A stretch of DNA of 64,000 bases from Candidatus Versatilivorator sp. (lineage in GTDB: Bacteria; Acidobacteriota; Terriglobia; Versatilivoradales; Versatilivoraceae), in the NCBI GenBank assembly GCA_965207735.1, contig OZ242296.1, positions 928,001 through 992,000 of the forward strand. Reading direction: 5' to 3'. Of the stretch, positions 1 through 15,644 are shown piece after piece (position 1 is the first letter of the stretch; every line of letters begins with the position of its first letter). Under the pieces are notes generated by a model. It saw only the letters and a program-made list of their open reading frames with translations, had not been told where the DNA came from and did not search any database. Made by a program: the position numbers and the translations under genes.

Positions 1-1724
1 GTGCGATTTACGGCCTCGGGGATTTCCTCGCCTTCTTCCGCTTCATGGTCCGCCTCTTCCTGGCCGCTCTCGTCGTCGGCATGGCCTCCCCCGCGCTCGG
101 CAAAACCCGGCCGGTAGCGCTGCGTCTCCAGCCTGCCGCCGAACTGGAACCTGGCGGCTTCGAATTCCAGTTCCTCAAGGACGTAGAGGGCAAAGCCGGT
201 CTGATCGATCGGGGGCGACAGCGCTTCCTCCCCGACTGCCGAGTATTCTCGATCCAGGCCCCAGAAGCCGAAGCGGCCGCTCAACGGTCCAATCTTTTTC
301 TGCTCGAAGACTCCCCGATAGACGAATTCCTGTTGGTCGAACGTCGTGCCGACAACTTGTTCCCCGTTCTCGAAGAACTCGATCTCCTTGTGATTCCAGT
401 CAGTCAAGCTCATTTTCAGAACAAATTCGTCTATTGCCGTCCCCAGGTCCCTCAATCCCCCGGTGAAACGGACGTTCCGGCGCCGTGAGTCGAGAAGGAT
501 ACGGTCGATCTCCTCCTCGCCGTGATCCTCGCCTTCCTCGCCGTGGTCCTCACCCTCTTCGTCGTGATCCTCGCCTTCCTCGTCGTCATCCTCGCCCTCT
601 TCGTCGTGATGCTCGCCTTCTTCGTCGTGGTCTTCGCCCTCTTCGTCGTGGTCCTCGTCCCCATGGCCCTCTTCGCCATGGTGTCCGTGAAACTCCTGAA
701 CGAAGGGTACGCCGTAGGCGCCGTCGTCGAATTTGGCTTCGACACTGAAGAAAATCTTGTCCCCGTACCAGCCCAGACCCGCTCCGCCATTTCTGAGTTG
801 AGAGCGTGAATTGTAGATCTGCCCCTGTTCCGCCGCCCTGTAGTCACCGGTTCGAACACCCCCACCGCGTCCCCAGATCATCCAGTTGCCGGTTCCAAAC
901 TCCAGACCGGCGCTGCCCCCACCCAAGGCGTTGGCGGTGCCGCCCGATCCGGACACGAATCCGCGAAACCCCTGGTGCGCATGGCGGTGAGCTTCGTGGT
1001 GACGACTGATGGCATTGACCGTGCCGCCCATGGCGTTTCCGCTGTAGAGCAGGGTCGCCGGTCCCTTGACGATCTCCAGCCGCTCCAGCTGCGCGGGATT
1101 GATCATCTCGCCATGGTCGCCGGACTGGGACGAAAGCGTACCTGTCCGGATGCCGTCTTCCATGATCAGCACGCGGTCCCCGTCAAAACCGCGCACGATC
1201 GGCCGGGCGGGGCCCGGTCCGAAGCTGCGCTTGGCAATCCCGGTGCCGACTCTGTGGTCCAGCATTTCCCCGAGAGAGATATCGGTCGATTGACCCAGTT
1301 CATGGGGCCCGATCGATTCCACGCTCTGGAAGGATTCAAATGTCGTCTCCCGCTTTTCCGATCCCGTGACCGTGACCTCATACTGGGGGGGAGCCAATAC
1401 CAGTCGAAAATCGGCCTCGACCGTTTGACCGGCCTCGATGGTCACCGTTGCGGAGGCTTCAGTAAAAAGGCTGTCGAGATGAGCTTCAACCGTATATCTG
1501 CCGGGAGCCACTTGTTGGAACCTGTAACTTCCATCGTCCCGGCTGAGAGTGATCCGGCCCAGTTCCACAATGGTCACGCTGACGCCGTGCAGCGGTTCCC
1601 CGCCGGCTTCCAAAGAGACGCGGCCCTTCAGGCTGCCGTCCGATTGGGCGACTGCGACTGGTTGGGCCGCCAGAGACAGCGCAGCCAACCAGAGGAGTGA
1701 AAGCAACCGGATTCCAATGTGCAT
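1..1724 (-). CDS. TonB-dependent receptor, ZnuD-like (putative Zn/metal uptake); 3' end runs off the window
   Basis: Translated by hand; absent from the ORF track because there is no stop in the window. ATG at 1724 follows a GGAGGG RBS. Signal peptide MHIGIRLLSLLWLAALSLAAQPVAVAQ, then a carboxypeptidase-regulatory-like N-domain (GSLKGRVSLEAGGEPLHGVSVTI), a plug motif SFGPGPARPIVRGFDGDRVLIMEDG..SGDHGE..RLEIVKGPATLLYSGNAMGGTVN, and a His/Asp/Glu loop. Confidence 0.9.
   Translation of the reverse strand, partial: MHIGIRLLSLLWLAALSLAAQPVAVAQSDGSLKGRVSLEAGGEPLHGVSVTIVELGRITLSRDDGSYRFQQVAPGRYTVEAHLDSLFTEASATVTIEAGQTVEADFRLVLAPPQYEVTVTGSEKRETTFESFQSVESIGPHELGQSTDISLGEMLDHRVGTGIAKRSFGPGPARPIVRGFDGDRVLIMEDGIRTGTLSSQSGDHGEMINPAQLERLEIVKGPATLLYSGNAMGGTVNAISRHHEAHRHAHQGFRGFVSGSGGTANALGGGSAGLEFGTGNWMIWGRGGGVRTGDYRAAEQGQIYNSRSQLRNGGAGLGWYGDKIFFSVEAKFDDGAYGVPFVQEFHGHHGEEGHGDEDHDEEGEDHDEEGEHHDEEGEDDDEEGEDHDEEGEDHGEEGEDHGEEEIDRILLDSRRRNVRFTGGLRDLGTAIDEFVLKMSLTDWNHKEIEFFENGEQVVGTTFDQQEFVYRGVFEQKKIGPLSGRFGFWGLDREYSAVGEEALSPPIDQTGFALYVLEELEFEAARFQFGGRLETQRYRPGFAERGGGHADDESGQEEADHEAEEGEEIPEAVNR
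511..690 (-). repeat. Imperfect 21-bp coding tandem repeat (EEGEDHD units) in the TonB receptor
   Basis: Minus strand encodes FHGHHGEEGHGDEDHDEEGEDHDEEGEHHDEEGEDDDEEGEDHDEEGEDHGEEGEDHGEEE. Confidence 0.9.
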
Positions 1725-1869
1725 GATGCCCTCCGAAGATAGCCGTGCCGAGTGCCAGCTTAATTGCCGAATCCGTTCTGCAGCCACTGGAATGTCAGGG
1801 GCGGGATATATGTTCGGATAAGCGGGATAAGAATCCGATCGAGCGGGACCGGTGACGACCACATAACAG

Positions 1870-1898
1870 TTGACGTGCTCCGTCTGTCCGGGTAATCT
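1870..1898 (+). promoter_or_regulatory. Putative sigma70 promoter for the permease-hflK operon
   Basis: TTGACG (1870-1875), 17-bp spacer, TAATCT (1893-1898). Confidence 0.55.
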
Positions 1899-1899
1899 G

Positions 1900-1919
1900 C
1901 TCAGCAACGCGTTGCGGAG
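1900..1919. promoter_or_regulatory. Palindromic operator candidate
   Basis: CTCAGCAACGCGTTGCGGAG is a 20-bp palindrome with one mismatched pair, immediately after the -10 box and between divergent metal genes. Confidence 0.5.
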
Positions 1920-2086
1920 TATTTACCGCACAGCCCAAGAAGATATGTGGACAATCCGCTTGGTTATTAGTGGGCACACTGGCCGCGCCCGGCTGCACGA
2001 CCCCCACTCCGGGTAATTCGCGGACGGGTTGAGGGGCCGTATCGGCCTCAGTTGGGAGATTCCAATTGGCTGTGGGATCCTTGAGC

Positions 2087-4489
2087 ATGTTGGCTGCATT
2101 CTTCGACTTCCTCTGGTCGTCCTTTCTCTTGTTAGCGCCCATGCTGCTGTTGGGGCTCTTTCTTTCGGGCCTCATTCACGTCTTTATTTCGCGTAAAGCT
2201 ATTCTCCGGTGGCTCCGTGACGACAGCCTGAAGTCGGTAACCACCAGTGCGGCCATCGGCGTGCCGGTCCCGCTGTGCAGTTGCTCGGTCGTGCCCGTGG
2301 TCGCCGAGATGCGGAAGAAAGGAGCGTCCCGCTCCTCCTGCATGTCGTTCCTGATCACTGCCCCGGAAACAGGCGCGGACTCGATCCTGGTCACCAACGC
2401 CTTCTTTGGATTGGTGGCGGCAATAGTCCGGCCCATCATCAGCTTCGTCACTGCGACCGTCGCCGGCATTTTTTGCATCGGTCTCATCAGAGACGATCGC
2501 GACGCGAAAGTGAGTGGTCACGGCCACGATCATGACCACGACCACGATCATGACCATGACCACGGTTCCCACGAGCCGCTCACGCCCGGCCAGGACGACT
2601 GCTATATCAGCTTTTCTCAATTGAAAGGCGCTATGGGGCGCTGGATGAGGGGAATCGCTACGGCGGCCGGGCGGGCGGTGGGCAGGTGGAAGTCCACATC
2701 CTGGGTCAAGCCGGAGTTCTATCGCGATCAGGCGCTGGCTGACGAGCCATCCGCCGACAGGTCGCAGGTCGATGCGCCCGCGGATGACCGGATGCCGAGC
2801 TTCAAGACGATCGTCAGGCATATCTTTCGCTACGGTTTCGTCGAAATCGCCGACGACATTCTCTTCGCGCTGCTCGTCGGGGTGGCCTTGGGGGGAGTGC
2901 TCTTTCTGGTGATTCCGAGCGATCTGATGTCGAACGAGTACGCCCGCTGGATGTCCTACCCCATCATGGTTCTGGTGGGAGTTCCGCTCTACATTTGCGC
3001 ATCGGCAAGCACCCCGATCGCCGCCGCGCTGGTCGCCAAGGGTTTCAGTCCGGGAGCGGCCCTGATTTTTCTCATGACGGGTCCGGCGACCAACACGGGC
3101 ACTATCGCGATCATCACAAGCCAGTTCGGCGCGCGTTTCGCGACCATCTACGTCTCGGCCGTGATCGTAGTGACCGTCATCGTGGGTATCTTGATTGATA
3201 TTCTGCTTCTGGCCACAGGCATGACCATCCCCGTGTACCTGGGGGCCTCGGACTCGCCGGCCATATTGTTGCTGCAATGGGGAGGCGCCTTGGGCCTCAT
3301 CGCCCTGATCATCTGGCGATTCCGGGCCGGCGCCTTGCGAAGCGGCTGGGAGGATCTGATGGTCAACATCCGGCCTCTGTCCAGGGGCTGGAGACAGGCG
3401 TGGGAACGTCTGACCCGAGGCCGGTCCCTCCGCGGCGCCATCACTCCGACCACTCCGGCGGGCAGGGGTCTCTCCGTTGTGGTCCTTGCCCTTTTCCTCG
3501 GCAGCGGCTTCACCTCCGTGCCTCCGGGAGAGGTCGGCTACGGTCGCCTGTTGGGCAAGGTTGTCTGGAGGGACCTGGAGCCGGGACTGCACTACCTTGT
3601 CCCCTGGCCCTTCGTTCAGGTCGATAAATGGCCGGTCCGGGAAGTGAAGTCGCTCATGGCCGGCGACGCCCACGAATACGTTTCCGGCGATCTGAACCTG
3701 ATTTCTCTCGTGGTCAATGTGCAATATCGGGTGAAGGACCCTTACCTCTACCATTACCGGATAAGCGACGCCCAGAGAATCGTCAAGGACGGCGTCAGGG
3801 ACCATGTGCGCTCCTTCGTATCCGCCCGAGATATGGATCAGCTCCTCAATGTTCATCGCGCAGCCTTGGAGGAGAGCGTCAACGAATTGTTCCAAAGCGA
3901 GCATCTGTCGCATCCGGAAGCGCAAGCCTTGGCGTTCGAGAGCGTCGAACTGGTGAAGGTGAACCTGTCGGCCATCAGTCCCGTACCCGAGGCCATGAGC
4001 GCGTTCCGGGAGGTATCGAGCGCGCAAGAGGACAAAGCTCGCATCATCACCAATGCGCAGCGGCTCCTGGTGTCTCTGATTCCCCAGGCGCACGGTAATG
4101 CCGACTACGAGGTGAAACAGGCCGCCGGCGAGGCGCACCGGAGAGTGAAGACGTCCGGGGCTGAGGCCGGTGCGATCCAGCGGGTGGCCGCGGCCATCCG
4201 AAGTGCTCCGAATGTGCTACGGAATATGCTGTGGCGGGAAAAACTGGAAACCGCACTGTCCGATAAACCCAAGATCATTGTGCCCAACAGACGTAGTCTG
4301 GATAAGGTTTCCTTGTGGAAGGGAAGATCGGCGGGGTCGGGCGCCAAAGCCCGTCATGTCGGCGCCGACAGGAACGCTGCAGACGGCGGGATGAGGGATG
4401 GCGCCAAGAGCGCCGGCCCGAAGAATTCGAAGAAGCCGGCCGACCCGCCCAAGGAATCAACAGCCAATCAGCCGGGAGAAAAAAAGTGA
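2087..4489 (+). CDS. DUF318 (ArsP/SO_0444-like) metal permease fused to a C-terminal HflK-like SPFH domain
   Basis: N-half has DUF318 motifs GVPVPLCSCSVVP, FLITAPETG, PLYICASASTPIAAAL and FLMTGPATN plus a HGHDHDHDHDHDHDH tract. C-half (from ~3480) has HflK motifs GFTSVPPGEVG..GKVV..LEPGLHY..PWPF, SGDLNLISLVVNVQYRVKDP, AFREVSSAQED and IPQAHGNA. ATG at 2087 (ORF track starts at 2066). Confidence 0.88.
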   Translation: MLAAFFDFLWSSFLLLAPMLLLGLFLSGLIHVFISRKAILRWLRDDSLKSVTTSAAIGVPVPLCSCSVVPVVAEMRKKGASRSSCMSFLITAPETGADSILVTNAFFGLVAAIVRPIISFVTATVAGIFCIGLIRDDRDAKVSGHGHDHDHDHDHDHDHGSHEPLTPGQDDCYISFSQLKGAMGRWMRGIATAAGRAVGRWKSTSWVKPEFYRDQALADEPSADRSQVDAPADDRMPSFKTIVRHIFRYGFVEIADDILFALLVGVALGGVLFLVIPSDLMSNEYARWMSYPIMVLVGVPLYICASASTPIAAALVAKGFSPGAALIFLMTGPATNTGTIAIITSQFGARFATIYVSAVIVVTVIVGILIDILLLATGMTIPVYLGASDSPAILLLQWGGALGLIALIIWRFRAGALRSGWEDLMVNIRPLSRGWRQAWERLTRGRSLRGAITPTTPAGRGLSVVVLALFLGSGFTSVPPGEVGYGRLLGKVVWRDLEPGLHYLVPWPFVQVDKWPVREVKSLMAGDAHEYVSGDLNLISLVVNVQYRVKDPYLYHYRISDAQRIVKDGVRDHVRSFVSARDMDQLLNVHRAALEESVNELFQSEHLSHPEAQALAFESVELVKVNLSAISPVPEAMSAFREVSSAQEDKARIITNAQRLLVSLIPQAHGNADYEVKQAAGEAHRRVKTSGAEAGAIQRVAAAIRSAPNVLRNMLWREKLETALSDKPKIIVPNRRSLDKVSLWKGRSAGSGAKARHVGADRNAADGGMRDGAKSAGPKNSKKPADPPKESTANQPGEKK

Positions 4490-5382
4490 TGACCTTGAAG
4501 GCAAAAAGAGTCGCCGCAACCATTGCCGTGATTGCTTTTGGCGTCGTTGCCTACGATGCCCACTACATCATCGACGAAACGCAGCAGGGGGTGCTGACCC
4601 ACTTCGGCAGGATTTCTCCTCCCGTCAAACAGCCCGGTCTCCACCTCAAGTGGCCCTGGCCCATCTCCAAGGTATACAAGGTTGATCGCCGCATTCATGT
4701 TCTCACCGACCTCACCCAGGAATTGATTACGGAAGACCAGAAGAGCGTTCTGATCAACGGGTATCTGCAATGGCGGGTCCAGGATCCCATCCTCTTCGTC
4801 GAGGCGATCCGAACCGCCCAGAGCGCCACCGAGCGGCTGAGGAATCTGTACACCTCGAGCAGCGGCATCGTCATCAGCAACGAGGCCCGGGACGCCTTTA
4901 TCAGTCTGGGCCTGGAACACGAAGATCTGACCAAGGCCGCCAGGGAGATTGTCGGCCTCATTGCGCCCATCGCAAGCGAGAACTACGGTATCGAGGTGAC
5001 CGGGGGCGGAATCGTCGAATACACCTTGCCGCTGGAGAACCGGCCAAGCGTGATTCAGCGAATGATCTCGGAGCGCGCCCGCATCGCCGCCCGCTATCGC
5101 AGTGAAGGGGAAGAGATGGCGATCCGCGTCGAGGCACGGGCCATCAACGAGCACGAAAAGCTCATGGCCGATGCCCACGCGGAAGCAACCGCCATTCTTG
5201 GCGATGCGGAAGCCGAAGCGATGCAGTTGCTCGGCAAGGCCTATCGACAGGATCCGGAGTTCTACAAGTTCATCCGCGCTCTCGACAGCTACGATCTGAT
5301 CATCGACAAGAACACTACCCTCATGCTGCCGGCGGATAACGAGTTGTTCAAGTATCTCGACAGCAGGCAAGTACCCAGATAG
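4489..5382 (+). CDS. hflC: HflC-like SPFH protein
   Basis: IIDETQQGVLTHFG..QPGLHLKWPWP, ITEDQKSVLINGYLQWRVQDP, QRMISERARIAARYRSEG and AYRQDPEFYKFIRALDSY. ATG overlaps the upstream stop (TGATG). Confidence 0.88.
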   Translation: MTLKAKRVAATIAVIAFGVVAYDAHYIIDETQQGVLTHFGRISPPVKQPGLHLKWPWPISKVYKVDRRIHVLTDLTQELITEDQKSVLINGYLQWRVQDPILFVEAIRTAQSATERLRNLYTSSSGIVISNEARDAFISLGLEHEDLTKAAREIVGLIAPIASENYGIEVTGGGIVEYTLPLENRPSVIQRMISERARIAARYRSEGEEMAIRVEARAINEHEKLMADAHAEATAILGDAEAEAMQLLGKAYRQDPEFYKFIRALDSYDLIIDKNTTLMLPADNELFKYLDSRQVPR

Positions 5383-5396
5383 TTCGGGTTCGGCTA

Positions 5397-6692
5397 ATGA
5401 ACGGACAACAATCAACTCCGACAAGCACGCGAGTCATATACGCCGTATTTGACTTTTACGGGTTGCACCGCACCCAGATTCTTGCGGGCCTCGCCGCGGT
5501 GGTCTTGATCTGCCTGCTGGCCACCGGCTTCTACATCGTCAAGAAGGAGGAGCAGGGCCTGCGCACCCGCTTCGGGCGAGTGGTCGATGCGGAAGTCGGT
5601 CCGGGAATCGGATACCGCATCCCCCTCATCGAACGGATGCACATCCGCAAGGTCAAGAGAATCGTCGGATACCGGATAGCCAGCAGGGACAGCGATACGA
5701 TCAACTTCACGGTCCTGTCCGGAGACACCAACCTTCTCGAAGTCGATGTGGCCATTCAGTACAGAATTGGCAACCTCAGGCAGTTCCTGTTTGCGAGCAC
5801 CGACCCCCAGACTTTGCTCACCATGCTCGTTCGCGAGGAACTGATCAACATTCTCGGGCAGCACTTTATCGACTTGATCTTCACTTCGAATCGCAATCTC
5901 ATTCAGCAGCATCTGATCGACGCCGTGATCGGGCGCCTCGAATCTCTGGATGTCGGCATGGAGCTCATCACGCTGAAAATCGTCAATGTGCGACCGATCC
6001 CGGAGACCCGTGATGCGTTCCGGGATGTCAACGATGCCATCGCCGAACGCGAGCAGGCCGTGAGCGGAGCAAATCGCAGGAGAGAACAGTTGATCGCTCG
6101 CAGCAAGGGGCAGGCTGAAGCGTTGATAATGAACGCCAAGGCGAGCGCCCGGGAACGGATTGTTCAGGCGCGAAGCAGCGCCGGCGTCTTCAGGGCGCTG
6201 CTGGCTGAATATCGGAAGCAGCCGCAGTCTGTGGCCATCACGCGTTACTGGCAACGCATGCGAGCGATCTTTACCGAGGCAAGCCTGGCGATGGTGAACC
6301 CGGGCCGGCCATCCACCATCGACATCAACATGATTGACGGCGCACCGGGATTCACCCCGGCCCAGATGTTGTTGCAAGCGCCGCCTACGGATTCTGCAGC
6401 TCTCGAGGGGCGGCTGCCCGGTTCGACGGTGGCGCCGGACATTCACACGCTGGAAAACATCGGGAAGGACAAACTCCTGCTGGAAGGACAGTTTCATAGA
6501 GAACGCACTGAGCGCGACCATCAAAAGGGAGCCAACCCCCGGTCGCTCATATTCGATACGCCGTCCATATTCTCCCATCGGCACATAAGGCCTCGCGGAG
6601 GGATTGTCAGGCAGCAGGAGAGCCAGAAGCCGATGGTGGAGTCGATGGCTGAGGAAGGCGCGGAGAAAGACAAGCCTGCGAAGGGGAAATAG
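5397..6692 (+). CDS. hflK: Second HflK-like SPFH protein with C-terminal extension
   Basis: GFYIVKKEEQGLRTRFGRVV..VGPGIGYRIP, LSGDTNLLEVDVAIQYRI, DAFRDVNDA and FRALLAEYRKQP. Confidence 0.85.
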   Translation: MNGQQSTPTSTRVIYAVFDFYGLHRTQILAGLAAVVLICLLATGFYIVKKEEQGLRTRFGRVVDAEVGPGIGYRIPLIERMHIRKVKRIVGYRIASRDSDTINFTVLSGDTNLLEVDVAIQYRIGNLRQFLFASTDPQTLLTMLVREELINILGQHFIDLIFTSNRNLIQQHLIDAVIGRLESLDVGMELITLKIVNVRPIPETRDAFRDVNDAIAEREQAVSGANRRREQLIARSKGQAEALIMNAKASARERIVQARSSAGVFRALLAEYRKQPQSVAITRYWQRMRAIFTEASLAMVNPGRPSTIDINMIDGAPGFTPAQMLLQAPPTDSAALEGRLPGSTVAPDIHTLENIGKDKLLLEGQFHRERTERDHQKGANPRSLIFDTPSIFSHRHIRPRGGIVRQQESQKPMVESMAEEGAEKDKPAKGK

Positions 6693-6693
6693 C

Positions 6694-7884
6694 ATGACCG
6701 AATGTCTGCTCCGGAAATGTCGATCAGCGCCGTTGCTGGTATTACCGTTGCTGTTGGCACCCTGGCCTTCGATGGCGGCCGACGGCGTCTACGCGGACAA
6801 AATCGTCTTTGGACAGAGCGCCTGTCTATCGGGGCCCAACAGGGATCTGGGGCGCCATTACCGGGCAGGTATCCTGGTGGCCTTCGGGGAACGGAACGCT
6901 CTCGGGGGGATCGACGGCAGGTCTCTGGAACTGATCACGCGCGACGACGGCTACGAGCCGGGCCAGGCAGCGGCGAACGCGCAGAGATTCGTCGCCGAGG
7001 ACGATGTGTTGGCCGTCATCGGCGGGGTGGGAACGCCTACCTCGAGGCGGATCGCTCCAGTGCTGCGAGCGGCCAAGATTCCGTTTGTGGGACACATTAC
7101 GGGCGCCGGCTTTCTGCGCGATGCCGGGCAGTATCCGAATGTCGTCAATCTGAGGGCGAGTTATCAGGACGAAATCCGCATGCTGGTAAACCACACCGTT
7201 GGCCACCACGGCAAGAGACGGTTCGGCATCATCTACCAGGACGATGCCTTCGGTCGATCGGGGCTGAAGGGCTACAAGGTGGCGCTCGACGAGCACGGTC
7301 TTCCCCTGCTGGCGAAAGCGGCCTTTTCGCGCAATACCCATGCCGTCCATGCCAGCCTCTTCTCCCTGGCCAAGGCCGATCTGGATGTGATTCTGGTCGT
7401 CGGAACCTACACCACCAATGCAGATATCATCAACTTGGCAAAGAGCCTGGGACACGACTACATCATGGCCAACCTGTCTTTCGTCCTGTCCTATGAATTG
7501 AAGAAGAGAATCGAGGTGCCGGGCAGCCGAATCGTGGTAACCGAGGTCGTGCCTGACGTGAACGACCCGAATAGTCGAGTCGTTCAGAGTTTTCGGCGCG
7601 CCCTTCGAGCGTCAGGCGGACGAACGGTAAAATCCGAAATGCCCGCGATCAACGAGGTATCTCTGGAAGGCTATATACTTGGCCGCTTTGTCATCGCCGT
7701 GCTGGAACGCATGGACGGGGAGTGGACGCGAGAGCGCTTTCTGGATCGGGCTTTGCAATCCGGCCCCGTGGACATTGATGACTGGAAGGTTGAATTCAAG
7801 CCGGGGACGAACACCGGATCGAGCTACGTCAGGTTGACCGTGTTCAATGGCCACGATTCCCACGAGAGGAGAGAGGGTCCTTGA
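6694..7884 (+). CDS. Periplasmic binding protein type 1 (branched-chain amino-acid/ligand-binding family)
   Basis: Signal peptide, then IVFGQSACLSGP, GGIDGRSLELITRDDGYEP, GGVGTPTS, NLRASYQDE and YQDDAFG. ATG at 6694, just after the hflK stop. Confidence 0.85.
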   Translation: MTECLLRKCRSAPLLVLPLLLAPWPSMAADGVYADKIVFGQSACLSGPNRDLGRHYRAGILVAFGERNALGGIDGRSLELITRDDGYEPGQAAANAQRFVAEDDVLAVIGGVGTPTSRRIAPVLRAAKIPFVGHITGAGFLRDAGQYPNVVNLRASYQDEIRMLVNHTVGHHGKRRFGIIYQDDAFGRSGLKGYKVALDEHGLPLLAKAAFSRNTHAVHASLFSLAKADLDVILVVGTYTTNADIINLAKSLGHDYIMANLSFVLSYELKKRIEVPGSRIVVTEVVPDVNDPNSRVVQSFRRALRASGGRTVKSEMPAINEVSLEGYILGRFVIAVLERMDGEWTRERFLDRALQSGPVDIDDWKVEFKPGTNTGSSYVRLTVFNGHDSHERREGP

Positions 7885-8372
7885 AAAAGGTAGACGAGTT
7901 CACCACCGAAGAGGTCGGCGAGGAATGGCTGCGCGAGCTCTACAAGGTTGTCGCTATGCGCCGTGGCACCATGTTCCGGTTGATTACCGAATCGACGCGC
8001 ATGTTGCTTTACGGAAACGCCGGCGGCGCGGCCTTGGTGGTCGGATTCATGAGAGAGCCTTCAGGAAGCCCCGAGAATACGGTGTACCACTGGTTTTCCC
8101 TGCTGACCCTGGTCGTGTTCGGGTTCGGAATCCTGGCCTCGGCCCTGACCATGGTGCTGGTGACTCTGGTCTCGGTGAAGGAGGCCCACGGGGCGGAAAC
8201 CGGATTGAAGGAGTTTGTCGACGGCGATTTGGATCGGACACGGGTGCTGTTTAAAGTTGCGGGCCAGACCTTTCGCCTCGCCGATTTCGCCACGGTGTCC
8301 GGCACCGTCAGCGCCATGAGCTTCATGCTCGGCGGATTGAGCAGCATCGTCCTGCTGACCCTGTTCTTCTAG
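7881..8372 (+). CDS. Hypothetical membrane protein
   Basis: TTG start overlaps the upstream TGA; about three hydrophobic segments; no family recognised. Confidence 0.65.
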   Translation: MKKVDEFTTEEVGEEWLRELYKVVAMRRGTMFRLITESTRMLLYGNAGGAALVVGFMREPSGSPENTVYHWFSLLTLVVFGFGILASALTMVLVTLVSVKEAHGAETGLKEFVDGDLDRTRVLFKVAGQTFRLADFATVSGTVSAMSFMLGGLSSIVLLTLFF

Positions 8373-8397
8373 CCCTCCCTAGAACCGGACCATCACC

Positions 8398-8997
8398 ATG
8401 CTTCAGCTTGCCGGTTCGCTCCTCGCCCCGGTTGCAGGCGCCTTGCTGTACGGGTGGTTGCACAACCGGCCCTATGGCGTGCGCCTCGTTGACGGCTTCA
8501 TGTATGTAGCGGTGCCGGCACTCGTCCTGTGGCAAGTCGTTCCGCACGCCTGGGCCAGTCACGGCCTACTGGCCATTGGGGTCATCGTCCTGGGCATAGT
8601 CACACCCGCTCTCATCGAGCGCCTCTCTCACAAGCTTGCTCCGCACACCGACAACCTGGCTCTCCTGGCCGGGTTGTCGGGGCTGTCGCTGCACGCGTTT
8701 CTGGAGGGAGCGGCGCTCGTTTCAAAAGCGCTTCATATCGGACTCGCCGTGATTCTGCACCGGATTCCGGTCGGCCTGACGGTCTGGTGGTTGTTACGTC
8801 CCCGTCACGGCTTCAGGGGAGCTTCACTGGGAATTGCGGCGATCCTCGTGGCCACGGTCGCCGGTTACGCTGCCGGCGCCCGTTTCTTCGGGGACGGTCA
8901 TAGCGGTGCAGGGCTCTATCAGGCGTTTGTCGGCGGATCGCTTCTGCACGTGGTGTTTCACCAGAGCCGCCGCGACCATAGTCACGAGCACGACTAG
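8398..8997 (+). CDS. ZIP-like divalent metal transporter domain protein
   Basis: Multi-TM; LHAFLEG and ILHRIPVG resemble ZIP TM4/TM5 motifs; C-terminal His-rich tail (HVVFHQSRRDHSHEHD). Confidence 0.65.
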   Translation: MLQLAGSLLAPVAGALLYGWLHNRPYGVRLVDGFMYVAVPALVLWQVVPHAWASHGLLAIGVIVLGIVTPALIERLSHKLAPHTDNLALLAGLSGLSLHAFLEGAALVSKALHIGLAVILHRIPVGLTVWWLLRPRHGFRGASLGIAAILVATVAGYAAGARFFGDGHSGAGLYQAFVGGSLLHVVFHQSRRDHSHEHD

Positions 8998-9002
8998 CGA
9001 GG

Positions 9003-9347
9003 CTATAAAGAGGCCAGAGCGCTCCAGCGCGAGTTGCGGATCAGCATGACCTGATCGAAGCCGCTGACGCGAAAAACCTCGTGGATGTTGTCCTTCATGG
9101 AGCACAAGATGAACTTGCCCTGTTTCGACTGAAACTGTTTGGCAGCTACCAGAATCACACGCATTCCCGCACTGCTGACAAATTTGAGCCGGCTGAAGTC
9201 GATAATCAGGTTCTGTTCACCGTTCCTGATGTGATCCATTACCAGTGATTCAAACGAGTCCGCATTCGGGCCGTACAAGCGGTTGACAGGGATCAGAACC
9301 AACACCCCGGATTCTCGCTCCTCGATTACTTCAATATCAGTGATCAT
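9003..9347 (-). CDS. STAS-domain anti-sigma-factor antagonist
   Basis: LIIDFSRLKFVSSAGMRVIL..IHEVFRVSGF; likely ATG at 9347. Confidence 0.85.
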   Translation of the reverse strand: MITDIEVIEERESGVLVLIPVNRLYGPNADSFESLVMDHIRNGEQNLIIDFSRLKFVSSAGMRVILVAAKQFQSKQGKFILCSMKDNIHEVFRVSGFDQVMLIRNSRWSALASL

Positions 9348-9465
9348 TGTGGCACCTGAATGTCGGCCTGCCCCCAGTCGTCTCGGACGGGCTGATGGTT
9401 CCTGTACGCCATGAATTTGCAGAAGGGTAAAGTATCCACGATCAATTTGTCCAGGGCGATTTGCA

Positions 9466-12400
9466 TCACGCCTCATCGTCGCTTTCGAGCCAGCGATACA
9501 GCGATGGAAGCACGAAAAGCGTCAGCAGAGTCGAGGTTACCAGTCCACCGATGACGACCGTCGCCAAGGGACTCTGCACCTCGGCACCCGCACTGGTCGA
9601 CAAGGCCATGGGAACGAATCCGAGACTGGCGACCAGTGCCGTCATCAGGACCGGCCTCATGCGGCGCTCGGCGCCCTGACGCACCGCCTCGTCCACCGTC
9701 ATACCCTGCTTTCTGAGGTCGAGAAAGTAGGAAACCATCACGACGCCGTTCAGCACCGCAACGCCGAAGAGCGCGATGAAGCCGACGCCGGCTGAGATGC
9801 TGAGAGGCAGTCCGCGCAGGAACAGCGCCAGGATGCCTCCGGTGGCCGCCAGCGGGATGTTGAAGTAGATGAGCATTGCCGGCTTGGCCGCCTTGAAGGC
9901 CGTATAGAGCAATAGAAAGATCAGGAAGAGTGCAATCGGCACGACCAGGGCCAAGCGTTTGGTGGCCCGCTCCATGTTCTCGAACTGTCCACCGTATTCC
10001 ACGGAATAGCCGGGTGGCAGATCGACTCCGCCGGCAACCGCCGCCCGCACATCTGTGGCGAAACTGCCGAGATCGCGGCCGCGCACGTTGGCTTCGACTG
10101 TAATTCTCCGCTGGATCTGCTCCCGGCTAATCTGAGCCGGGCCCTCCTCGGTCCAGATCTCGGCGAGTTGCGACAGCGGGATCATGGCGCCGCCAGGATC
10201 AGACACCCGGATCGATCGGATCTGCTCGATATTGTTGCGGGCCTCGGGCACGAACCTCGCCCGCAAGGGGAAGCGAGCCTGTCCCTCGAGCACCTCGCCG
10301 AGCGTCGTTCCTCCCATCGTCTCGACCACGGCCAGTACGTCGGCGACATTGATGCCATAACGAGCCACCGCTGCACGATCGATCCGTACACGCAGAAAAG
10401 GCAGTCCGGACGTCTGTTCCGCCTTGACGTCGGCGGCGCCGGGAACGCCGGCCACCACCCGCCGCACCTCGTCCCCGATGCGTCGTAACTCGTCGAGGTC
10501 GGGACCGTATACGGTGACCGCCAAGTCGGAACGGACACCAGCGATCATCTCCTGCATGCGCAATTCGATGGGTTGCGAGTAGCTGAAGATGTTGCCGGGC
10601 ACCCGATGCTCGAGCGCACGGTTGATCTCCTCGATCAGGCCTTCCTTGGTATCGGCCGTTTCCCAGTTACTGTCGTCGGTCAGGATCGCATAGATGTCGC
10701 TGGTCTCAACCCCCATCGGGTCGGTGGGGATCTCGGCTTGACCGGTCCGAGAAACCACCGTCACAACCTCGGGGAATTCCAGCAGCGTCTTCTCGATGAG
10801 TGTCGTGCTCTTGGTTGACTCCGAGAGCGCTACGCTTGGGAGACGCCAAGCCTGAACCGCAATGGCGCCCTCGTTGAGCTTGGGCAGGAACTCCGTGCCC
10901 ATGAAGGGGACCAACAGGAGCGAAGCGGCAAAGACGAGCGCCGCTCCGGCTCCGGCCAGGCGCGGATACGACAGAACCCTGTCGAGCAGCGGTCGGTACA
11001 GCCTCAGCAGCCAGGCCACCAGGCGGGGGGTCTTGTGTGGGATTCGCTTCCGAAACACCATCAGGGAGAGCACCGGCATCAGCGTCAGAGCCAACACCAG
11101 TGAAGCCACCAGAGCGAAGACCACGGTCAGGGCCATTGGCCGGAACATCTTTCCTTCGATTCCCTGCAGGACCATGATGGGCAGGTAGACGATGATGATG
11201 ATCATCACCGCAAAGAACACCGGGCGCGCCACTTCGCGACCTGCCCAGCCCACCACCTCACCACGTATCTGTCCATTTCGCGCCTGGCTCAGGCGCCGAA
11301 CGATGTTCTCGACCATGACAACCGATCCGTCGACGATCAGCCCGAAGTCGATTGCGCCCAGGCTCATCAAGTTGCCGGAAAGCCCTGCCTGTACCATTCC
11401 GGTAAAGGCGAACAGCATCGATAACGGAATCACCGAGGCGACGATCAATCCTCCGCGCAGGTTGCCCAGAAACAGCAGGAGCACGGCGATCACCAGCAGG
11501 CCCCCTTCCACCAGGTTCTGCTGCACGGTGGCTATGGTCCGCCGGACCAGATCGGTTCGGTCGTAGAAGGTTTCGATTTCAACGCCTGGAGGCAATGTCG
11601 GTTTGATGCGCGCCAACTCCTCGTCCACCTTTCGAGCAACGACGCGCGGGTTCTCGCCCATCAGCATCATGACGACGCCGGTCACCACCTCGCCTCTACC
11701 GTCTCGAGTCACGGCGCCCTGCCGGACCATGGGCGCGAAGGCGGCTTTGCCGATATTGCGAATGAAGATGGGAGTACCGTCCTCGACGGCCGTGACCACG
11801 ATATTGTCGATGTCCTCAAGGGAGTCGATCAGGCCCTCGCCGCGAATGACGTACTGCTCCTGGGAGCGTTCGATGTAAGCGCCTCCCGCATTCGCGTTGT
11901 TCTCTCGAAGCGCGTCGAAGACCATTTCGAGCGAAACGTTGTGGGCAACCAGGCGATTGGGATCGAGCTGCACCTCATAGGTTTTGAGCTCGCCACCGTA
12001 GGAATTCACCTCGACCACGCCCGGTACCGACTGCAGCTTGAACCCGATCTCCCAGTCGAGGATGCTGCGCAACTCCATTGGGGTATACCCTTCGCCACGA
12101 ACCTCGAACTGGTAGATCTCACCCAACCCGGTGCTGATCGGACCCATTGAGGGTGTGCCGTAGCCCTCCGGAATCAACTCGCGGGCCTCGGGCAGCCGCT
12201 CCATTACGAGCCGGCGTGCGAAGTAGAGGTCGATCGACTCTTCGAAATAGATGTAGACCGACGAGAGTCCGAACCGCGAAACCGATCGGATCTTGGTGAT
12301 GCCGGGAAGGCCGCTCATTGCGGTTTCGACTGGAAAGGTGACAAACTGCTCGACCTCCACCGGCCCGAGCCCGGGCGTCTGGGTCAAAACCGCCACCTGG

Positions 12401-12531
12401 TTTGGAGTCACGTCGGGCACCGCATCGATCGGCAACTGGAACATCGAGTAGACGCCGAAGCCGGCAGCCAACAGGGTGAACGCCAGGATGAGAAACCGAT
12501 TGCGGAGGGAGAAATCGATGAGGCGATGCAT
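9466..12531 (-). CDS. czcA: CusA/CzcA heavy-metal efflux RND transporter
   Basis: LPIDAVPDVT, GNLMSLGAIDFGLIVDG, GFIALFGVAVLNG and RPVLMTALVASLGFVPMA; 1021 aa. Confidence 0.95.
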   Translation of the reverse strand: MHRLIDFSLRNRFLILAFTLLAAGFGVYSMFQLPIDAVPDVTPNQVAVLTQTPGLGPVEVEQFVTFPVETAMSGLPGITKIRSVSRFGLSSVYIYFEESIDLYFARRLVMERLPEARELIPEGYGTPSMGPISTGLGEIYQFEVRGEGYTPMELRSILDWEIGFKLQSVPGVVEVNSYGGELKTYEVQLDPNRLVAHNVSLEMVFDALRENNANAGGAYIERSQEQYVIRGEGLIDSLEDIDNIVVTAVEDGTPIFIRNIGKAAFAPMVRQGAVTRDGRGEVVTGVVMMLMGENPRVVARKVDEELARIKPTLPPGVEIETFYDRTDLVRRTIATVQQNLVEGGLLVIAVLLLFLGNLRGGLIVASVIPLSMLFAFTGMVQAGLSGNLMSLGAIDFGLIVDGSVVMVENIVRRLSQARNGQIRGEVVGWAGREVARPVFFAVMIIIIVYLPIMVLQGIEGKMFRPMALTVVFALVASLVLALTLMPVLSLMVFRKRIPHKTPRLVAWLLRLYRPLLDRVLSYPRLAGAGAALVFAASLLLVPFMGTEFLPKLNEGAIAVQAWRLPSVALSESTKSTTLIEKTLLEFPEVVTVVSRTGQAEIPTDPMGVETSDIYAILTDDSNWETADTKEGLIEEINRALEHRVPGNIFSYSQPIELRMQEMIAGVRSDLAVTVYGPDLDELRRIGDEVRRVVAGVPGAADVKAEQTSGLPFLRVRIDRAAVARYGINVADVLAVVETMGGTTLGEVLEGQARFPLRARFVPEARNNIEQIRSIRVSDPGGAMIPLSQLAEIWTEEGPAQISREQIQRRITVEANVRGRDLGSFATDVRAAVAGGVDLPPGYSVEYGGQFENMERATKRLALVVPIALFLIFLLLYTAFKAAKPAMLIYFNIPLAATGGILALFLRGLPLSISAGVGFIALFGVAVLNGVVMVSYFLDLRKQGMTVDEAVRQGAERRMRPVLMTALVASLGFVPMALSTSAGAEVQSPLATVVIGGLVTSTLLTLFVLPSLYRWLESDDEA

Positions 12532-12532
12532 G

Positions 12533-12667
12533 TTAGTGCGAGTGGCCGATCCGCACGTGATCGATCGGCAATTGGAACATTGAATGCACTCCGAACTCGG
12601 AAGCCACTACCGTGAACGCCAGGATGCGATACCGATTGTGGCGGGAGGAATCGACGAGGGAATTCAT
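12533..12667 (-). other. 44-codon chimeric mini-ORF from a diverged ~136-bp tandem duplication of the czcB/czcA junction
   Basis: MNSLVDSSRHNRYRILAFTVVASEFGVHSMFQLPID-HVRIGHSH* aligns codon by codon to the CzcA N-terminus (MHRLIDFSLRNRFLILAFTLLAAGFGVYSMFQLPID) plus the CzcB C-terminus (HERIGHSH*). Confidence 0.85.
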
Positions 12668-12668
12668 G

Positions 12669-14024
12669 TTAGTGCGAATGACCGATTCGCTCGTGAAGCA
12701 ACGCGGTTTTCAAATAGAAGCTGCCGGTCGACACGATCGTTTCGCCCGGCTTCAGGCCGCTGACCACCTCAACCTGACCGCCGGCCGTCGAACCGAGCGT
12801 CACGTCGCGGCGCTCAAAGGCGGTCGGTCCTGTCCGCGCGAAGACAACTGACTGCCCGTCAATCTGTTGAACCGCATCCACGGGAGCCACCAGCGTGGAA
12901 ACCTTCTCATTTGTAGGGATGGAAACTCTGGTGAACATGCCGAGCTTCAGCGCCTTGTCGGGATTCTTGACGACACAGCGCACGTGAGCGGCGCGCGTGC
13001 TCATTTCGATGGTGTCCGAGATGTAGGTGATGCGGCCGGTGAACACCCGGTCCGGATAGGCATCGACCTGAATCGTGACTTCGGCGTCCGTTGGGAGGCG
13101 GCCCAGGTCGGGCTCGTAGACATCGGCGAGAACCCAAACCGTTGACATGTTGGTAATCGTCAGCAGCTCGCGGCCAGGATCGACCAGGTCGCCCACTGCC
13201 ACACCGAACTCCGTCACGGTCCCCGCGAAGGGTGCGCGAAGCACATTGAGCGACATTTCGCGGTGTCGTTCCGCGGCCGCCCGCATCTCGTCGGCACTAC
13301 CGCTCGGGGCGACTTCCGAAAGGTCTTCGTCCGTCAGTCCGAAGCGATGTATCCGCTCCTCGATTCTGCTCACCTCCGCCTGGTTGCTGACCAGGCCGGC
13401 CCGGGCCTGCTCGAACTCCGACCGGCGCAGATCGAGGGTCTGCTGAGAGATCGCCTCAAGGCCGATCAATTGCTCTGCCCGTTGCAAGCTCCGTTGCAAG
13501 ACCTCTAGGTCGGCCTCGGCCTGGCGTCGAGCCGCTACCGCCGCCCGGTATTCCCCGATGTGGTCTCCAAGCGCGATGTTGTCGTAATGCACGAGCACTT
13601 GTCCCGCTCGCACGCGGTCGCCAAGGCTGACGTCGACTTGCTTGACGACCCCCTCCGCCAACGGCCGCAGGCGCACCACTCGTGAGATGACGGGCGTGAC
13701 CAGACCGGTCACGTTCATCGGTACGGGATGGGCACGGCGCTCCGCGGCTGCAACCTGCATGCCGGCGTTCTGCTGGGCCTCCAGGGGAATCTCCAGCGAA
13801 CCATCGGCCTCGTCTCCGGCGTGCTCTTCACCGTCATGGGTCTCGCCGGCGTGTTCCTCCTCAGCGTGGTCTTCCCCATGGTGAGCCCCATTGTTTCCCG
13901 TCTCCAGGCAGGCTGAACCTGCCGCGGCTCCCAAGCAGATCGCCAGCCAGACGAGCACTGCACCCAGCCCGCCTTGCCGGCGCAGTCTGTGACGCAGTCG
14001 GTGACGCGGTCCATGCATTTGCAA
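12669..14024 (-). CDS. czcB: CzcB-like RND membrane fusion protein
   Basis: His/Glu-rich N-segment; LRAPFAGTV, VWVLADVYE, FTGRITYI and LKLGMF. Confidence 0.92.
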   Translation of the reverse strand: MQMHGPRHRLRHRLRRQGGLGAVLVWLAICLGAAAGSACLETGNNGAHHGEDHAEEEHAGETHDGEEHAGDEADGSLEIPLEAQQNAGMQVAAAERRAHPVPMNVTGLVTPVISRVVRLRPLAEGVVKQVDVSLGDRVRAGQVLVHYDNIALGDHIGEYRAAVAARRQAEADLEVLQRSLQRAEQLIGLEAISQQTLDLRRSEFEQARAGLVSNQAEVSRIEERIHRFGLTDEDLSEVAPSGSADEMRAAAERHREMSLNVLRAPFAGTVTEFGVAVGDLVDPGRELLTITNMSTVWVLADVYEPDLGRLPTDAEVTIQVDAYPDRVFTGRITYISDTIEMSTRAAHVRCVVKNPDKALKLGMFTRVSIPTNEKVSTLVAPVDAVQQIDGQSVVFARTGPTAFERRDVTLGSTAGGQVEVVSGLKPGETIVSTGSFYLKTALLHERIGHSH

Positions 14025-14043
14025 TCGCTCCCTCGGAGCCGGG

Positions 14044-15351
14044 TCAGGGTTTTCCCGTCGGCCGGATGCCGACGGCCGCCGCCATCTCTATCAGGCTGAT
14101 GCGCAGGTCGTAGAGAGCCTGGTTGCGCACCTGCTGAGTTACGATGAATTCGCGCTGCACATCCAGGAAATCGATCAGCGCGGTCTCGCCAAGGTGGTAG
14201 GAGGCCTGGATCAGGTCATGCAATTCCCTTGAGCTGCGAAGATACTCCTGGTCAATATAGCGGACCCGCTTCGCACTGCTGTCGACGGCGTTGGCCGCCA
14301 TCTGCAACTCGGTGTCGACCGCCAACTTTTCCGCCCTCTCCAGTGCCTGGGCTCGGCGTCGTTCGGCAAAGGCCCGCTGTACTCCAGCGGGATTCAGACT
14401 GCCGAATAACGGAATCGGGATGCTGACTTCGAAATCCATGGCGTGCTCGCCGAAATCCCGGCGGTAGCCCCAGGCGAAAGTGACATTTGGAGCACGCATC
14501 GCGTGTTGCAGCTCCATCTCGGCTTCAGCGCGTTCGCGGGCATGGCGAGCGGCCTGCAGATCCGGCCGGATTGAGGCAGCGTCCTTCCGCAACGAATTCA
14601 ATTCAGCCGTGACGCCCTCACCCGTGGCGATCAGTCCACCGTCCGGACTTCGGAGTGGAGACGGCTCCAGCGGATCTATCGCTTCGAGCTGTTGCCGCAG
14701 GTCGGCTGCTCCGAGCAGATTCAGCAACACCACGCGTGCGTCGCTCATCGCCAGTTCCGTTGTCAGGACCTCATCGAAGAAATGGAGGCGCTCCACCTGC
14801 AGCCGGCGGAGCTCCGTGCCTGCCACTTCACCCACCTTGAACCTGGCCTCGGTCAAGGCGATGACACGCTCAATATCCTTGAGCGCCGCTTCCGCCGTGG
14901 TCTGATTGGCTTGGGCGAGTGCAAGCTGGAAGTATGCCTTGCTTACTTCGAGCTGCAGACGTCGAAGTTCATCGGCAACTTCCGAGCGCGCCACCCCGAT
15001 ACCGGCGTCAGCTGCTTTCATGCGGTGCCCACGACGGCCGGCGGTCTCGATCTCCTGCTCCATTCGGACGATCAAGGCCTGGCCGTTCAGGAATGAGGGA
15101 ACGTTGGGCCCAAAGATCGAATACTCCTCGCCTTCCACTGCAATTTCGGGGTTCGGCCGGCTGGCCGCCTCGCGCGCATCCGCCTCCGCGATCTCAACCA
15201 GGTTTCGGGCGGCGCGGAAATTGGCGTTGGCCACCTCGGCGATGCGCAGGGCATCGGCAAGCGTCAACCTTTCCGGGATCTCCGTATCCTGCCCCGATGC
15301 CGGAATATAAAGCAGGAACAGGGCACAGAAGAACAGCGTGGCGAACCTCAT
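14044..15351 (-). CDS. czcC: CzcC/TolC-family outer membrane efflux protein
   Basis: Signal peptide from ATG 15351; LTLADALRIA, RPDLQAAR and SYHLGETALIDFLDVQR. Confidence 0.9.
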   Translation of the reverse strand: MRFATLFFCALFLLYIPASGQDTEIPERLTLADALRIAEVANANFRAARNLVEIAEADAREAASRPNPEIAVEGEEYSIFGPNVPSFLNGQALIVRMEQEIETAGRRGHRMKAADAGIGVARSEVADELRRLQLEVSKAYFQLALAQANQTTAEAALKDIERVIALTEARFKVGEVAGTELRRLQVERLHFFDEVLTTELAMSDARVVLLNLLGAADLRQQLEAIDPLEPSPLRSPDGGLIATGEGVTAELNSLRKDAASIRPDLQAARHARERAEAEMELQHAMRAPNVTFAWGYRRDFGEHAMDFEVSIPIPLFGSLNPAGVQRAFAERRRAQALERAEKLAVDTELQMAANAVDSSAKRVRYIDQEYLRSSRELHDLIQASYHLGETALIDFLDVQREFIVTQQVRNQALYDLRISLIEMAAAVGIRPTGKP

Positions 15352-15644
15352 CGGACTAAAAAAGGGGATGGGGTCGTGGATAAGCAATTCTATGTCAAGT
15401 CGCAGCCGGTGCTCCGGAGCCCGCCTCGGAGTCTTGCACAAGGGGATCTCCGGCGGAATACGGCAGTTCGTGTCGTCGAAGGCTGAACAGCTGCGATCTC
15501 CTTGAAATCACTTTATTTGGAAGCAATTCAGAGTACGAAGTATATCATAGGCTCGTAGGAAGTCGGTCGGAGACAAACCGGGGTCCGGCTTTCAACCGCT
15601 GCCACGCTGTTCCCCCAAGGCAAATTCTCACATCTGAGGCACAC

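What the first reader, a model, noticed from the sequence alone, without database searches (positions are those of the whole stretch)
2087..4489. Single polypeptide joining a His-rich DUF318 permease to HflK
Seen: one uninterrupted ~800-codon frame carries the complete CSC/YIC permease motifs, an (HD)n tract, an extra ~80-aa hydrophilic insert, an Arg/Trp-rich linker, a TM helix and a full HflK domain. Inference: the fusion fixes the stoichiometry at one permease per HflK protomer, so a ring would array many permeases. The unfused second HflK could dilute them to a number that fits.
Basis: partly seen in the sequence, partly recalled or inferred. Interest (0 to 1): 0.8.

Follow-up and report, generated by a model that had tools for sequence, protein, structure and literature searches.

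The report
Metal permease welded to HflK cage
One gene joins a zinc/copper-type membrane transporter to a subunit of an HflK/HflC-type membrane scaffold and sits beside two partner scaffold genes in many bacteria, so the transporter is likely held by its own protein cage, probably to help gather zinc.

Summary
Confirmed. 2087-4489 is one 800-aa frame: an SO_0444/ArsP permease (318 bits, cut-off 300) fused to an HflK-like SPFH domain. All 120 best homologs are fused, 108 of 150 distant representatives carry both domains, and contigs of four runs bridge the junction. hflC and a second hflK follow in 22 of 22 loci with enough DNA. The same three-gene layout carries a P1B-ATPase (3 genomes) or a CDF domain (1 plasmid) in place of the permease, and the HflC partners of all three types form one tree group apart from ordinary hflC. 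Charge bias puts the SPFH domain in the periplasm and the His loop in the cytoplasm. ZnuA/ZnuB/ZIP genes flank 11 of 17 fused versus 1 of 36 unfused loci. Best reading (0.5): a dedicated cage holding a zinc permease, leaning to uptake. Against: the characterised family member exports Zn/Cu, no Zur box was found, and the SPFH half was lost repeatedly. Assembly, transport direction and the 'dilution' idea are untested. I found no paper describing the fusion; this scan has reported it before on other genomes.

The parts
2087..4489 (+). Fused gene: SO_0444/ArsP-family permease + HflK-like SPFH subunit (K1), 800 aa
   Evidence: 120 of 120 listed homologs fused
2087..3325 (+). Permease domain, residues 1-413: two repeats, each with a predicted re-entrant hairpin and a broken helix, plus one extra membrane helix
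   Evidence: NF033936 318 bits; model pLDDT 87, pTM 0.83; repeats by hhalign 99% probability
2276..2284 (+). CSC motif (C64, C66), predicted metal ligands in hairpin 1
   Evidence: invariant in 135 of 135 aligned proteins
2519..2572 (+). His/Asp tract (9 His, residues 145-162), predicted cytoplasmic
   Evidence: sequence; charge bias; variable across the wider family
2573..2800 (+). Clade-specific hydrophilic insert (residues 163-238); first half partly conserved (51%), second half not (19%)
   Evidence: loop median 52 aa in the distant set
2990..2998 (+). YIC motif (C304), predicted metal ligand in hairpin 2
   Evidence: C304 invariant
3326..3466 (+). Arg/Trp-rich linker with a predicted amphipathic helix (416-443), cytoplasmic side
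   Evidence: linker length 50 in 107 of 120 close rows
3455..3502 (+). HflK-type membrane anchor helix (457-472)
   Evidence: model; alignment to E. coli HflK 87-95
3515..4297 (+). SPFH domains and coiled coil of K1, predicted periplasmic
   Evidence: Band_7 477-658; Foldseek 7vhq_E E 3.9e-12; phmmer HflK E 4e-17
4489..5382 (+). hflC partner, 297 aa; its ATG overlaps the stop of the fusion by one base
   Evidence: TIGR01932 157.5 bits over cut-off 134.4; junction sequence
5397..6692 (+). Second, unfused hflK-like gene (K2), 431 aa, with a conserved His-bearing C-terminal extension in the close clade
   Evidence: TIGR01933 144 bits, under cut-off 159; alignment of 13 tails
6694..7884 (+). LivK-like periplasmic binding protein; fourth gene in the close clade only
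   Evidence: Peripla_BP_6; 12 of 12 close loci with enough DNA, 0 of 9 distant; best PDB match 4kv7
7881..8372 (+). Small membrane protein of no known family, 163 aa, about three hydrophobic segments; fifth gene in the close clade only
   Evidence: no Pfam or NCBIfam hit; 58-93% identity over 9 rows; Atlas: unnamed clusters
8398..8997 (+). Divergent ZIP-like membrane protein (context); family assignment indirect
   Evidence: no Pfam hit; 38% identical to the N-terminal domain of an ArsP fusion; a protein with that layout, P0269, has Pfam Zip; Pfam ZIP genes hold this position in L027, L029, L034, L041
3..1724 (-). Divergent His-rich TonB-dependent receptor, ZnuD-like (context; continues beyond the window start)
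   Evidence: best NCBIfam match ZnuD, 94 bits, far under cut-off 950

Best explanation
The gene encodes a cysteine-lined metal permease covalently joined to an HflK-type subunit that likely co-assembles with the adjacent HflC and second HflK into a dedicated periplasmic cage, probably serving zinc acquisition rather than the FtsH protease. Shown: the fusion, the three-gene operon, its conservation, the invariant C64/C66/C304, and the zinc-uptake neighbourhood. Predicted: about eight membrane-spanning helices plus two opposed re-entrant hairpins, His loop and linker inside, SPFH outside. Inferred from E. coli HflK/C: HflC takes every second ring position and the loaded K1 and unloaded K2 share the K positions, so up to about 12 but probably fewer permeases are tethered per cage. 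Inferred from stomatin and HflK/C: the cage corrals the permease in a membrane patch, shielding or gating it. Inferred from neighbours: it works when zinc is short, downstream of the ZnuD-like outer-membrane receptor, in a genome where no ZnuA was found.
For: Fusion in 120 of 120 close homologs and 108 of 150 representatives. hflC and hflK follow in 22 of 22 loci. Permease halves are the best-conserved parts (87% and 79% against 59% for SPFH), so the carrier is probably active. Alternating loop charge gives SPFH-out. P1B-ATPase and CDF domains occupy the same slot and the HflC partners of all three types group together at 98/96 support, apart from two-gene hflC. 4 of 5 triad genomes checked keep a separate hflC. 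The single ftsH found here lies 2.2 Mb away. ZnuA/ZnuB/ZIP within 6 kb of 11 of 17 fused and 1 of 36 unfused loci; Pfam confirms ZnuA/ABC-3/Zip at those loci and finds Zip beside 1 of 22 unfused loci scanned. No ZnuA in this genome. Analogues: P. aeruginosa PA2437-PA2439 beside hmtA rise 9-14-fold in zinc depletion (PMC4542158 Table 2) and Zur binds the PA2439 promoter (PMC8531726); stomatin encloses AQP1 and UT-B (PMC12407830, abstract).
Against: The characterised relatives (Shewanella SO_0444, Shew_3410) are needed for Zn/Cu resistance, that is export (PMC3219624, 10.1101/072470). RND efflux genes also flank 5 of 17 fused loci, against 3 of 36 unfused, including this window. No Zur-like box upstream. 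The SPFH half is missing in 5 of 20 complete close-clade metagenome loci and in L001, nested inside the fused group, so the permease gene persists without the cage. FtsH-contact positions are not clearly lost in distant K1 (R at 141 in 69 of 99, at 185 in 49 of 99). K-type branches of the tree are unresolved, and in the careful tree E. coli HflK falls among them. The neighbourhood profiles were seeded from fused loci and the loci are not independent. hmtA mRNA was not repressed by zinc in PMC8531726.
Confidence: 0.5

Rival explanations
1. Same dedicated cage, but the permease exports Zn/Cu like SO_0444, and the periplasmic dome would collect the metal for hand-over to an RND (CzcCBA-type) pump.
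For: Passes the NF033936 'Cu/Zn efflux' cut-off; SO_0444 mutants are Zn/Cu sensitive (PMC3219624); CzcCBA-type genes lie at 9466-15441 here and near 5 of 17 fused loci; the other cargoes, P1B-ATPase and CDF, are usually exporters (established knowledge); the His loop is predicted cytoplasmic, as in many exporters.
Against: ZnuABC-type genes are direct neighbours on the same strand in L020, L031, L038, L048 and L052; cysteine-poor S14 and cysteine-free L31 copies lie about 2 kb from L017; ArsR regulators were seen beside 3 of 22 unfused loci and in none of the fused-locus neighbours scanned.
Confidence: 0.25
2. The triad is a metal-linked modulator of FtsH: it cages FtsH as E. coli HflK/C does, and the tethered permease supplies zinc to the protease or is itself turned over by it according to metal status.
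For: All three subunits are HflK/HflC-like; this genome has no other hflK/hflC; FtsH is a zinc protease (established); distant K1 often keeps Arg at the E. coli contact positions.
Against: In the close clade R185 is kept in 7 of 120 and the R141-E142 pair in 0 of 120 (alignment gappy there); 4 of 5 triad genomes have a separate ordinary hflC; most genus mates live without any match (2 of 13 have it); fused permeases would crowd the interior.
Confidence: 0.15
3. The fusion is an incidental, tolerated join of co-regulated neighbours; permease and scaffold work independently.
For: Repeated loss of the SPFH half with the cysteine motifs intact; unfused SO_0444-type permeases are common.
Against: Fusion kept across about 100 clusters at 50% identity; fixed linker length in the close clade; three unrelated transporter families fused at the same slot; no unfused permease had an SPFH gene within 6 kb (0 of 36).
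Confidence: 0.1

Closest known systems
E. coli HflK/HflC cage with FtsH (PDB 7VHP, 7VHQ, 7WI3, 9CZ1/2, 9PAW)
   Same: HflK- and HflC-like subunits with one anchor helix, SPFH domains and coiled coil (21-27% identity); predicted periplasmic.
   Different: Three subunits instead of two; one carries a 413-residue permease; not in an hfq-hflX-hflK-hflC locus; FtsH link not shown; HflC groups apart in the tree.
SO_0444 family Cu/Zn efflux transporter (NCBIfam NF033936; Pfam PF03773 ArsP_1/DUF318)
   Same: Passes the family cut-off; same CSC and YxC motifs and two-repeat plan.
   Different: Fused to HflK; flanked by zinc-uptake genes rather than ZntR/ArsR; direction untested; no solved structure of the family found.
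Pseudomonas aeruginosa PA2439-PA2437 SPFH trio with HmtA (PA2435); probably PaFlo5-7 of strain PA14 (that equivalence is my inference)
   Same: Three SPFH genes in one operon with a metal transporter; induced by zinc depletion; Zur binds the promoter (PMC4542158, PMC11761036, PMC8531726, PMC13086221).
   Different: Transporter is a separate P-type ATPase gene. I had no P. aeruginosa sequence; look-alike loci (L002, L108) fall outside the ArsP/P1B/CDF group on long branches, so this is an analogue, not a shown ortholog.
Human stomatin enclosing aquaporin-1 and urea transporter UT-B (PMC12407830; PDB 9ZD2)
   Same: An SPFH dome associated with a transporter.
   Different: Non-covalent, single-paralog, eukaryotic; no metal link.

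Membership tests
SO_0444 family Cu/Zn efflux transporter (NF033936) | Score over the curated cut-off | tested here: met
   318 bits against 300
SO_0444 family Cu/Zn efflux transporter (NF033936) | Conserved Cys motifs in two repeats | tested here: met
   C64, C66, C304 invariant; repeats
SO_0444 family Cu/Zn efflux transporter (NF033936) | Exports Zn/Cu and confers resistance | not testable with these tools
   neighbours lean to uptake; no assay
HflK (TIGR01933) | Score over the equivalog cut-off | tested here: not met
   K1 126.7 and K2 144.2 bits against 159.4; HflK-like, not filed as HflK
HflK (TIGR01933) | Anchor helix, SPFH domains, coiled coil on the periplasmic side | tested here: met
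   model and fold match; charge bias; predicted, not measured
HflK (TIGR01933) | FtsH-contact residues R141, E142, R185 (PMC13220708) | tested here: inconclusive
   window K1 K/-/K, K2 V/S/T; gappy alignment; ordinary two-gene HflK of this phylum also keeps only R185
HflC (TIGR01932) | Score over the equivalog cut-off | tested here: met
   157.5 against 134.4
HflK/C-FtsH system | Alternating K/C ring of about 24 subunits | not tested
HflK/C-FtsH system | Binds and modulates FtsH | not testable with these tools
   single ftsH match 2.2 Mb away
P. aeruginosa hmtA-type SPFH trio | Orthology of the three SPFH proteins | tested here: inconclusive
   only look-alike loci L002 and L108 were in the trees; they lie outside on long branches
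P. aeruginosa hmtA-type SPFH trio | Zur box upstream | tested here: not met
   no match upstream with a recalled proteobacterial consensus; no shared palindrome in 22 upstream regions; the host's own motif is unknown

The most novel reading that the evidence does not exclude
Bacteria have a modular 'caged transporter' device: a K1-HflC-K2 SPFH cage whose K1 slot is loaded by gene fusion with interchangeable metal carriers (ArsP permease, P1B-ATPase, CDF). The periplasmic dome acts as a private antechamber that concentrates or gates zinc for the carriers tethered to it, with the unloaded K2 setting how many carriers a cage holds.
Probability: 0.3. Interest if true: 0.85.

Novelty: new variant of a known kind. 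Interest (0 to 1): 0.62.

Why it matters
What SPFH cages do to their client proteins is an open question, and bacterial clients other than FtsH are barely known. Here the client is named by the gene itself. The fusion gives a clean experiment: cut the linker or remove K2 and measure transport, stability and copy number per cage. It also offers a route to a first structure of the ArsP/SO_0444 family (none found) and a testable role for zinc-regulated SPFH trios such as the one beside P. aeruginosa hmtA.

Tried and rejected
Assembly artefact or frameshift-joined genes: rejected. Zur box: none upstream; no sigma-70-like promoter in 1650-9500. No fusion among 200 genomes of the class of G335 at E 1e-25. 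No fusion on plasmids or their records at 80% cover. Foldseek on the permease model found nothing at E 0.001 or better; the wider structural search could not be run, so an elevator-type fold is suggested only by the predicted hairpins. Complex prediction (permease dimer) was not available, so oligomeric state is open. No RNA holder listed. The claim in earlier notes that the membrane domain on hmtA-type K1 is a decayed CDF got no support from one pairwise BLAST, a weak test. A single origin of the ArsP-K1 fusion is unsettled: the AU test on SPFH parts does not reject it (p 0.44), but two fused permeases (L022, L060) sit among unfused ones across a 98/94 branch. The Atlas hint of a Pycsar-effector-like family for the small protein scored 0.80 and was not pursued. 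Literature searches without a description of the fusion: (listings only; subscription papers and supplements not covered).

Full report
Observation. The frame 2087-4489 gives 800 residues without a stop. Pfam finds ArsP_1 at 3-371 and Band_7 at 477-658. NCBIfam places the front part in the SO_0444 Cu/Zn transporter family above cut-off and the back part near HflK below cut-off. Contigs from four runs of four studies bridge the junction without an indel. Of the 120 listed close homologs all 120 carry both domains in this order, and so do 108 of the 150 best 50%-identity representatives, 100 of them at least 650 aa long. Source names on four close homologs point to Gemmatimonadota, Opitutae, Latescibacteria and Gammaproteobacteria. 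Only 2 of 13 other genomes of the window's genus have it. This patchy spread suggests horizontal transfer (inference).

Anatomy. The permease model is confident (pLDDT 87, pTM 0.83). It has two related halves (hhalign 99%), each with a helix-loop-helix around the Cys motif and a broken helix. C64, C66 and C304 are invariant in 135 aligned proteins. Mean Lys+Arg counts over about 100 fused proteins alternate: 2.6-3.4 at residues 34-48, 73-82, 236-250 and 344-352, 7.6 in the linker, but 0-1.0 at 104-112, 276-288, 314-322 and 374-392. By the positive-inside rule the His loop and linker are cytoplasmic and the SPFH domain periplasmic, the same side as in E. coli HflK, so the fusion keeps the right parity. 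The His tract and insert are features of the close clade, not of the whole family. No solved relative of the permease was found. The C-terminal part matches HflK by sequence and fold.

Operon. hflC starts on the last base of the fusion's stop codon and a second hflK-like gene follows. This order holds in 22 of 22 other loci with enough DNA downstream and in the two genus mates. The close clade adds a LivK-like binding protein (12 of 12) and a conserved 163-aa membrane protein of no family (9 of 9); the 9 distant loci show neither. These are the genome's only HflK/HflC-like genes: its other four Band_7 matches look like stomatin, QmcA or prohibitin types by inspection, and the one ftsH match is 2.2 Mb away.

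The cargo slot is interchangeable. Three genomes of the same phylum have a P1B-type ATPase fused to the first HflK of the same three-gene layout (for L121 the hflC is taken). An Aquibium plasmid has a CDF domain there. A Burkholderia plasmid and a Verrucomicrobiales locus have an unassigned membrane domain there, with a P-type ATPase next door. In the careful tree (47 of 63 rows; outgroups and near-duplicates left out) the HflC proteins of ArsP, P1B and CDF operons form one group at 98/96, apart from two-gene hflC. The K-type branches grouped at 88 in the quick tree but are unresolved in the careful one, where E. coli HflK falls among them. Four of five triad genomes checked have a second, separate hflC. 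So the triad looks like an extra kit tied to metal transporters.

Which metal, which way. With profiles built from a few seed genes, ZnuA, ZnuB or ZIP genes lay within 6 kb of 11 of 17 fused loci and 1 of 36 unfused loci having at least 5 kb of flank. The seeds came from fused loci and some loci are near-duplicates; merging those by hand leaves about 10 of 14. An independent Pfam scan of 47 immediate neighbours of 22 unfused loci found Zip once, no ZnuABC part, and ArsR regulators three times. In this window a His-rich ZnuD-like receptor is transcribed divergently, a ZIP gene lies just outside the window, and no ZnuA was found in the complete genome. Against uptake: SO_0444 and Shew_3410 protect Shewanella from Zn/Cu (passages of PMC3219624 and 10.1101/072470), RND efflux genes flank 5 of 17 fused loci, and I found no Zur box.

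Dispensability. Five of 20 complete close-clade metagenome loci, and L001, end shortly after the linker helix and have no SPFH genes. The five put in a permease tree nest inside the fused group, need at least three separate losses, and keep the Cys motifs. The permease gene can therefore persist without its cage. Two distant fused permeases group with unfused ones, so the join may have happened twice.

Mechanism. [quoted passage not shown] By analogy HflC would take every second place here and K1 and K2 would share the rest. With ring widths of 19-21 nm taken from prohibitin and erlin cages (10.1101/2025.04.21.649849, passages) and my own helix-area assumption, 12 permeases would nearly fill the inside but fit around the outside. 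The FtsH-contact residues named in PMC13220708 (passages) are mostly absent in the close clade and partly present in distant K1, which is inconclusive. Stomatin associating with aquaporin-1 and UT-B (PMC12407830, abstract only) shows that SPFH domes can hold transporters. The P. aeruginosa SPFH trio beside hmtA rises under zinc depletion (PMC4542158 and PMC11761036, passages) and its promoter binds Zur, although hmtA mRNA was not repressed by zinc (PMC8531726, passages). Deleting the PA14 trio gave only mild phenotypes in the passages I read (PMC13086221, passages and section 19). I put a dedicated, uptake-leaning zinc-permease cage at 0.5, an efflux version at 0.25, an FtsH modulator at 0.15 and an incidental fusion at 0.1.

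Novelty. Both domains are known and automatic annotations name them, but five searches showed no paper describing the fusion or the interchangeable-cargo triad; subscription papers and supplements were not covered. Earlier reports of this scan describe the same cassette on other genomes; they are leads, and the claims above rest on my own calls. I class it as a new variant of a known kind, interest 0.62.

Noticed in passing
L121:7110-10001, L122:7301-10000, L123:7017-10001 (all - strand): P1B-type ATPase fused to an HflK-like domain, followed by hflC and a second hflK, in three genomes of the window's phylum.
   Followed up: partly
L107:5430-9075 (Aquibium oceanicum plasmid NZ_CP018172.1): CDF membrane domain fused to HflK, annotated only as hflK, followed by hflC, hflK, a heavy-metal ATPase, PCuAC and SCO; a named species carrying a triad.
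   Followed up: partly
L002:6021-12198 and L108:4919-10931: Triads whose first HflK carries about 290 residues of unassigned membrane domain, followed by a P-type ATPase; in L002 K2 and the ATPase start with His/Asp tracts.
   Followed up: partly
window 6300-6692: The K2 tail beyond the HflK region keeps invariant His-containing motifs (H, G-x-x-H, ER, RSL-x-FD, H) in 13 of 13 close-clade loci; possible metal or partner site at the cage cap.
   Followed up: partly
residue 631 of the fusion (window about 3977-3979): Distant K1 proteins have a His here in 94 of 101 rows (HxP/HPP), as do P1B-fused K1; the close clade has other residues and K2 lacks it.
   Followed up: no
L025:4864-6675, P0269, P0230: Other fusions of the same permease: ZIP-like domain + ArsP, and ArsP + ABC ATPase; HMA-tailed forms in L012 and L084.
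   Followed up: no
window 500-690 (- strand): The TonB-dependent receptor has a tandem His/Glu/Asp repeat (DHDEEGE-like units) whose copy number differs in genus mates.
   Followed up: no
window 4357-4364: Contigs of three runs show a compensated +1/-1 indel pair in the disordered tail of the fusion.
   Followed up: no
window 9466-15441 (- strand): CzcCBA-type RND efflux genes with a His-rich adaptor, converging on the cassette, followed by an anti-sigma antagonist; Na/Pi cotransporter at 15645-16793.
   Followed up: partly
window 23457-25385: Hybrid protein with histidine kinase, receiver and OmpR-type DNA-binding domains in one chain.
   Followed up: no
window 17722-23007 (- strand): 1762-aa sulfatase with fibronectin type III repeats.
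   Followed up: no
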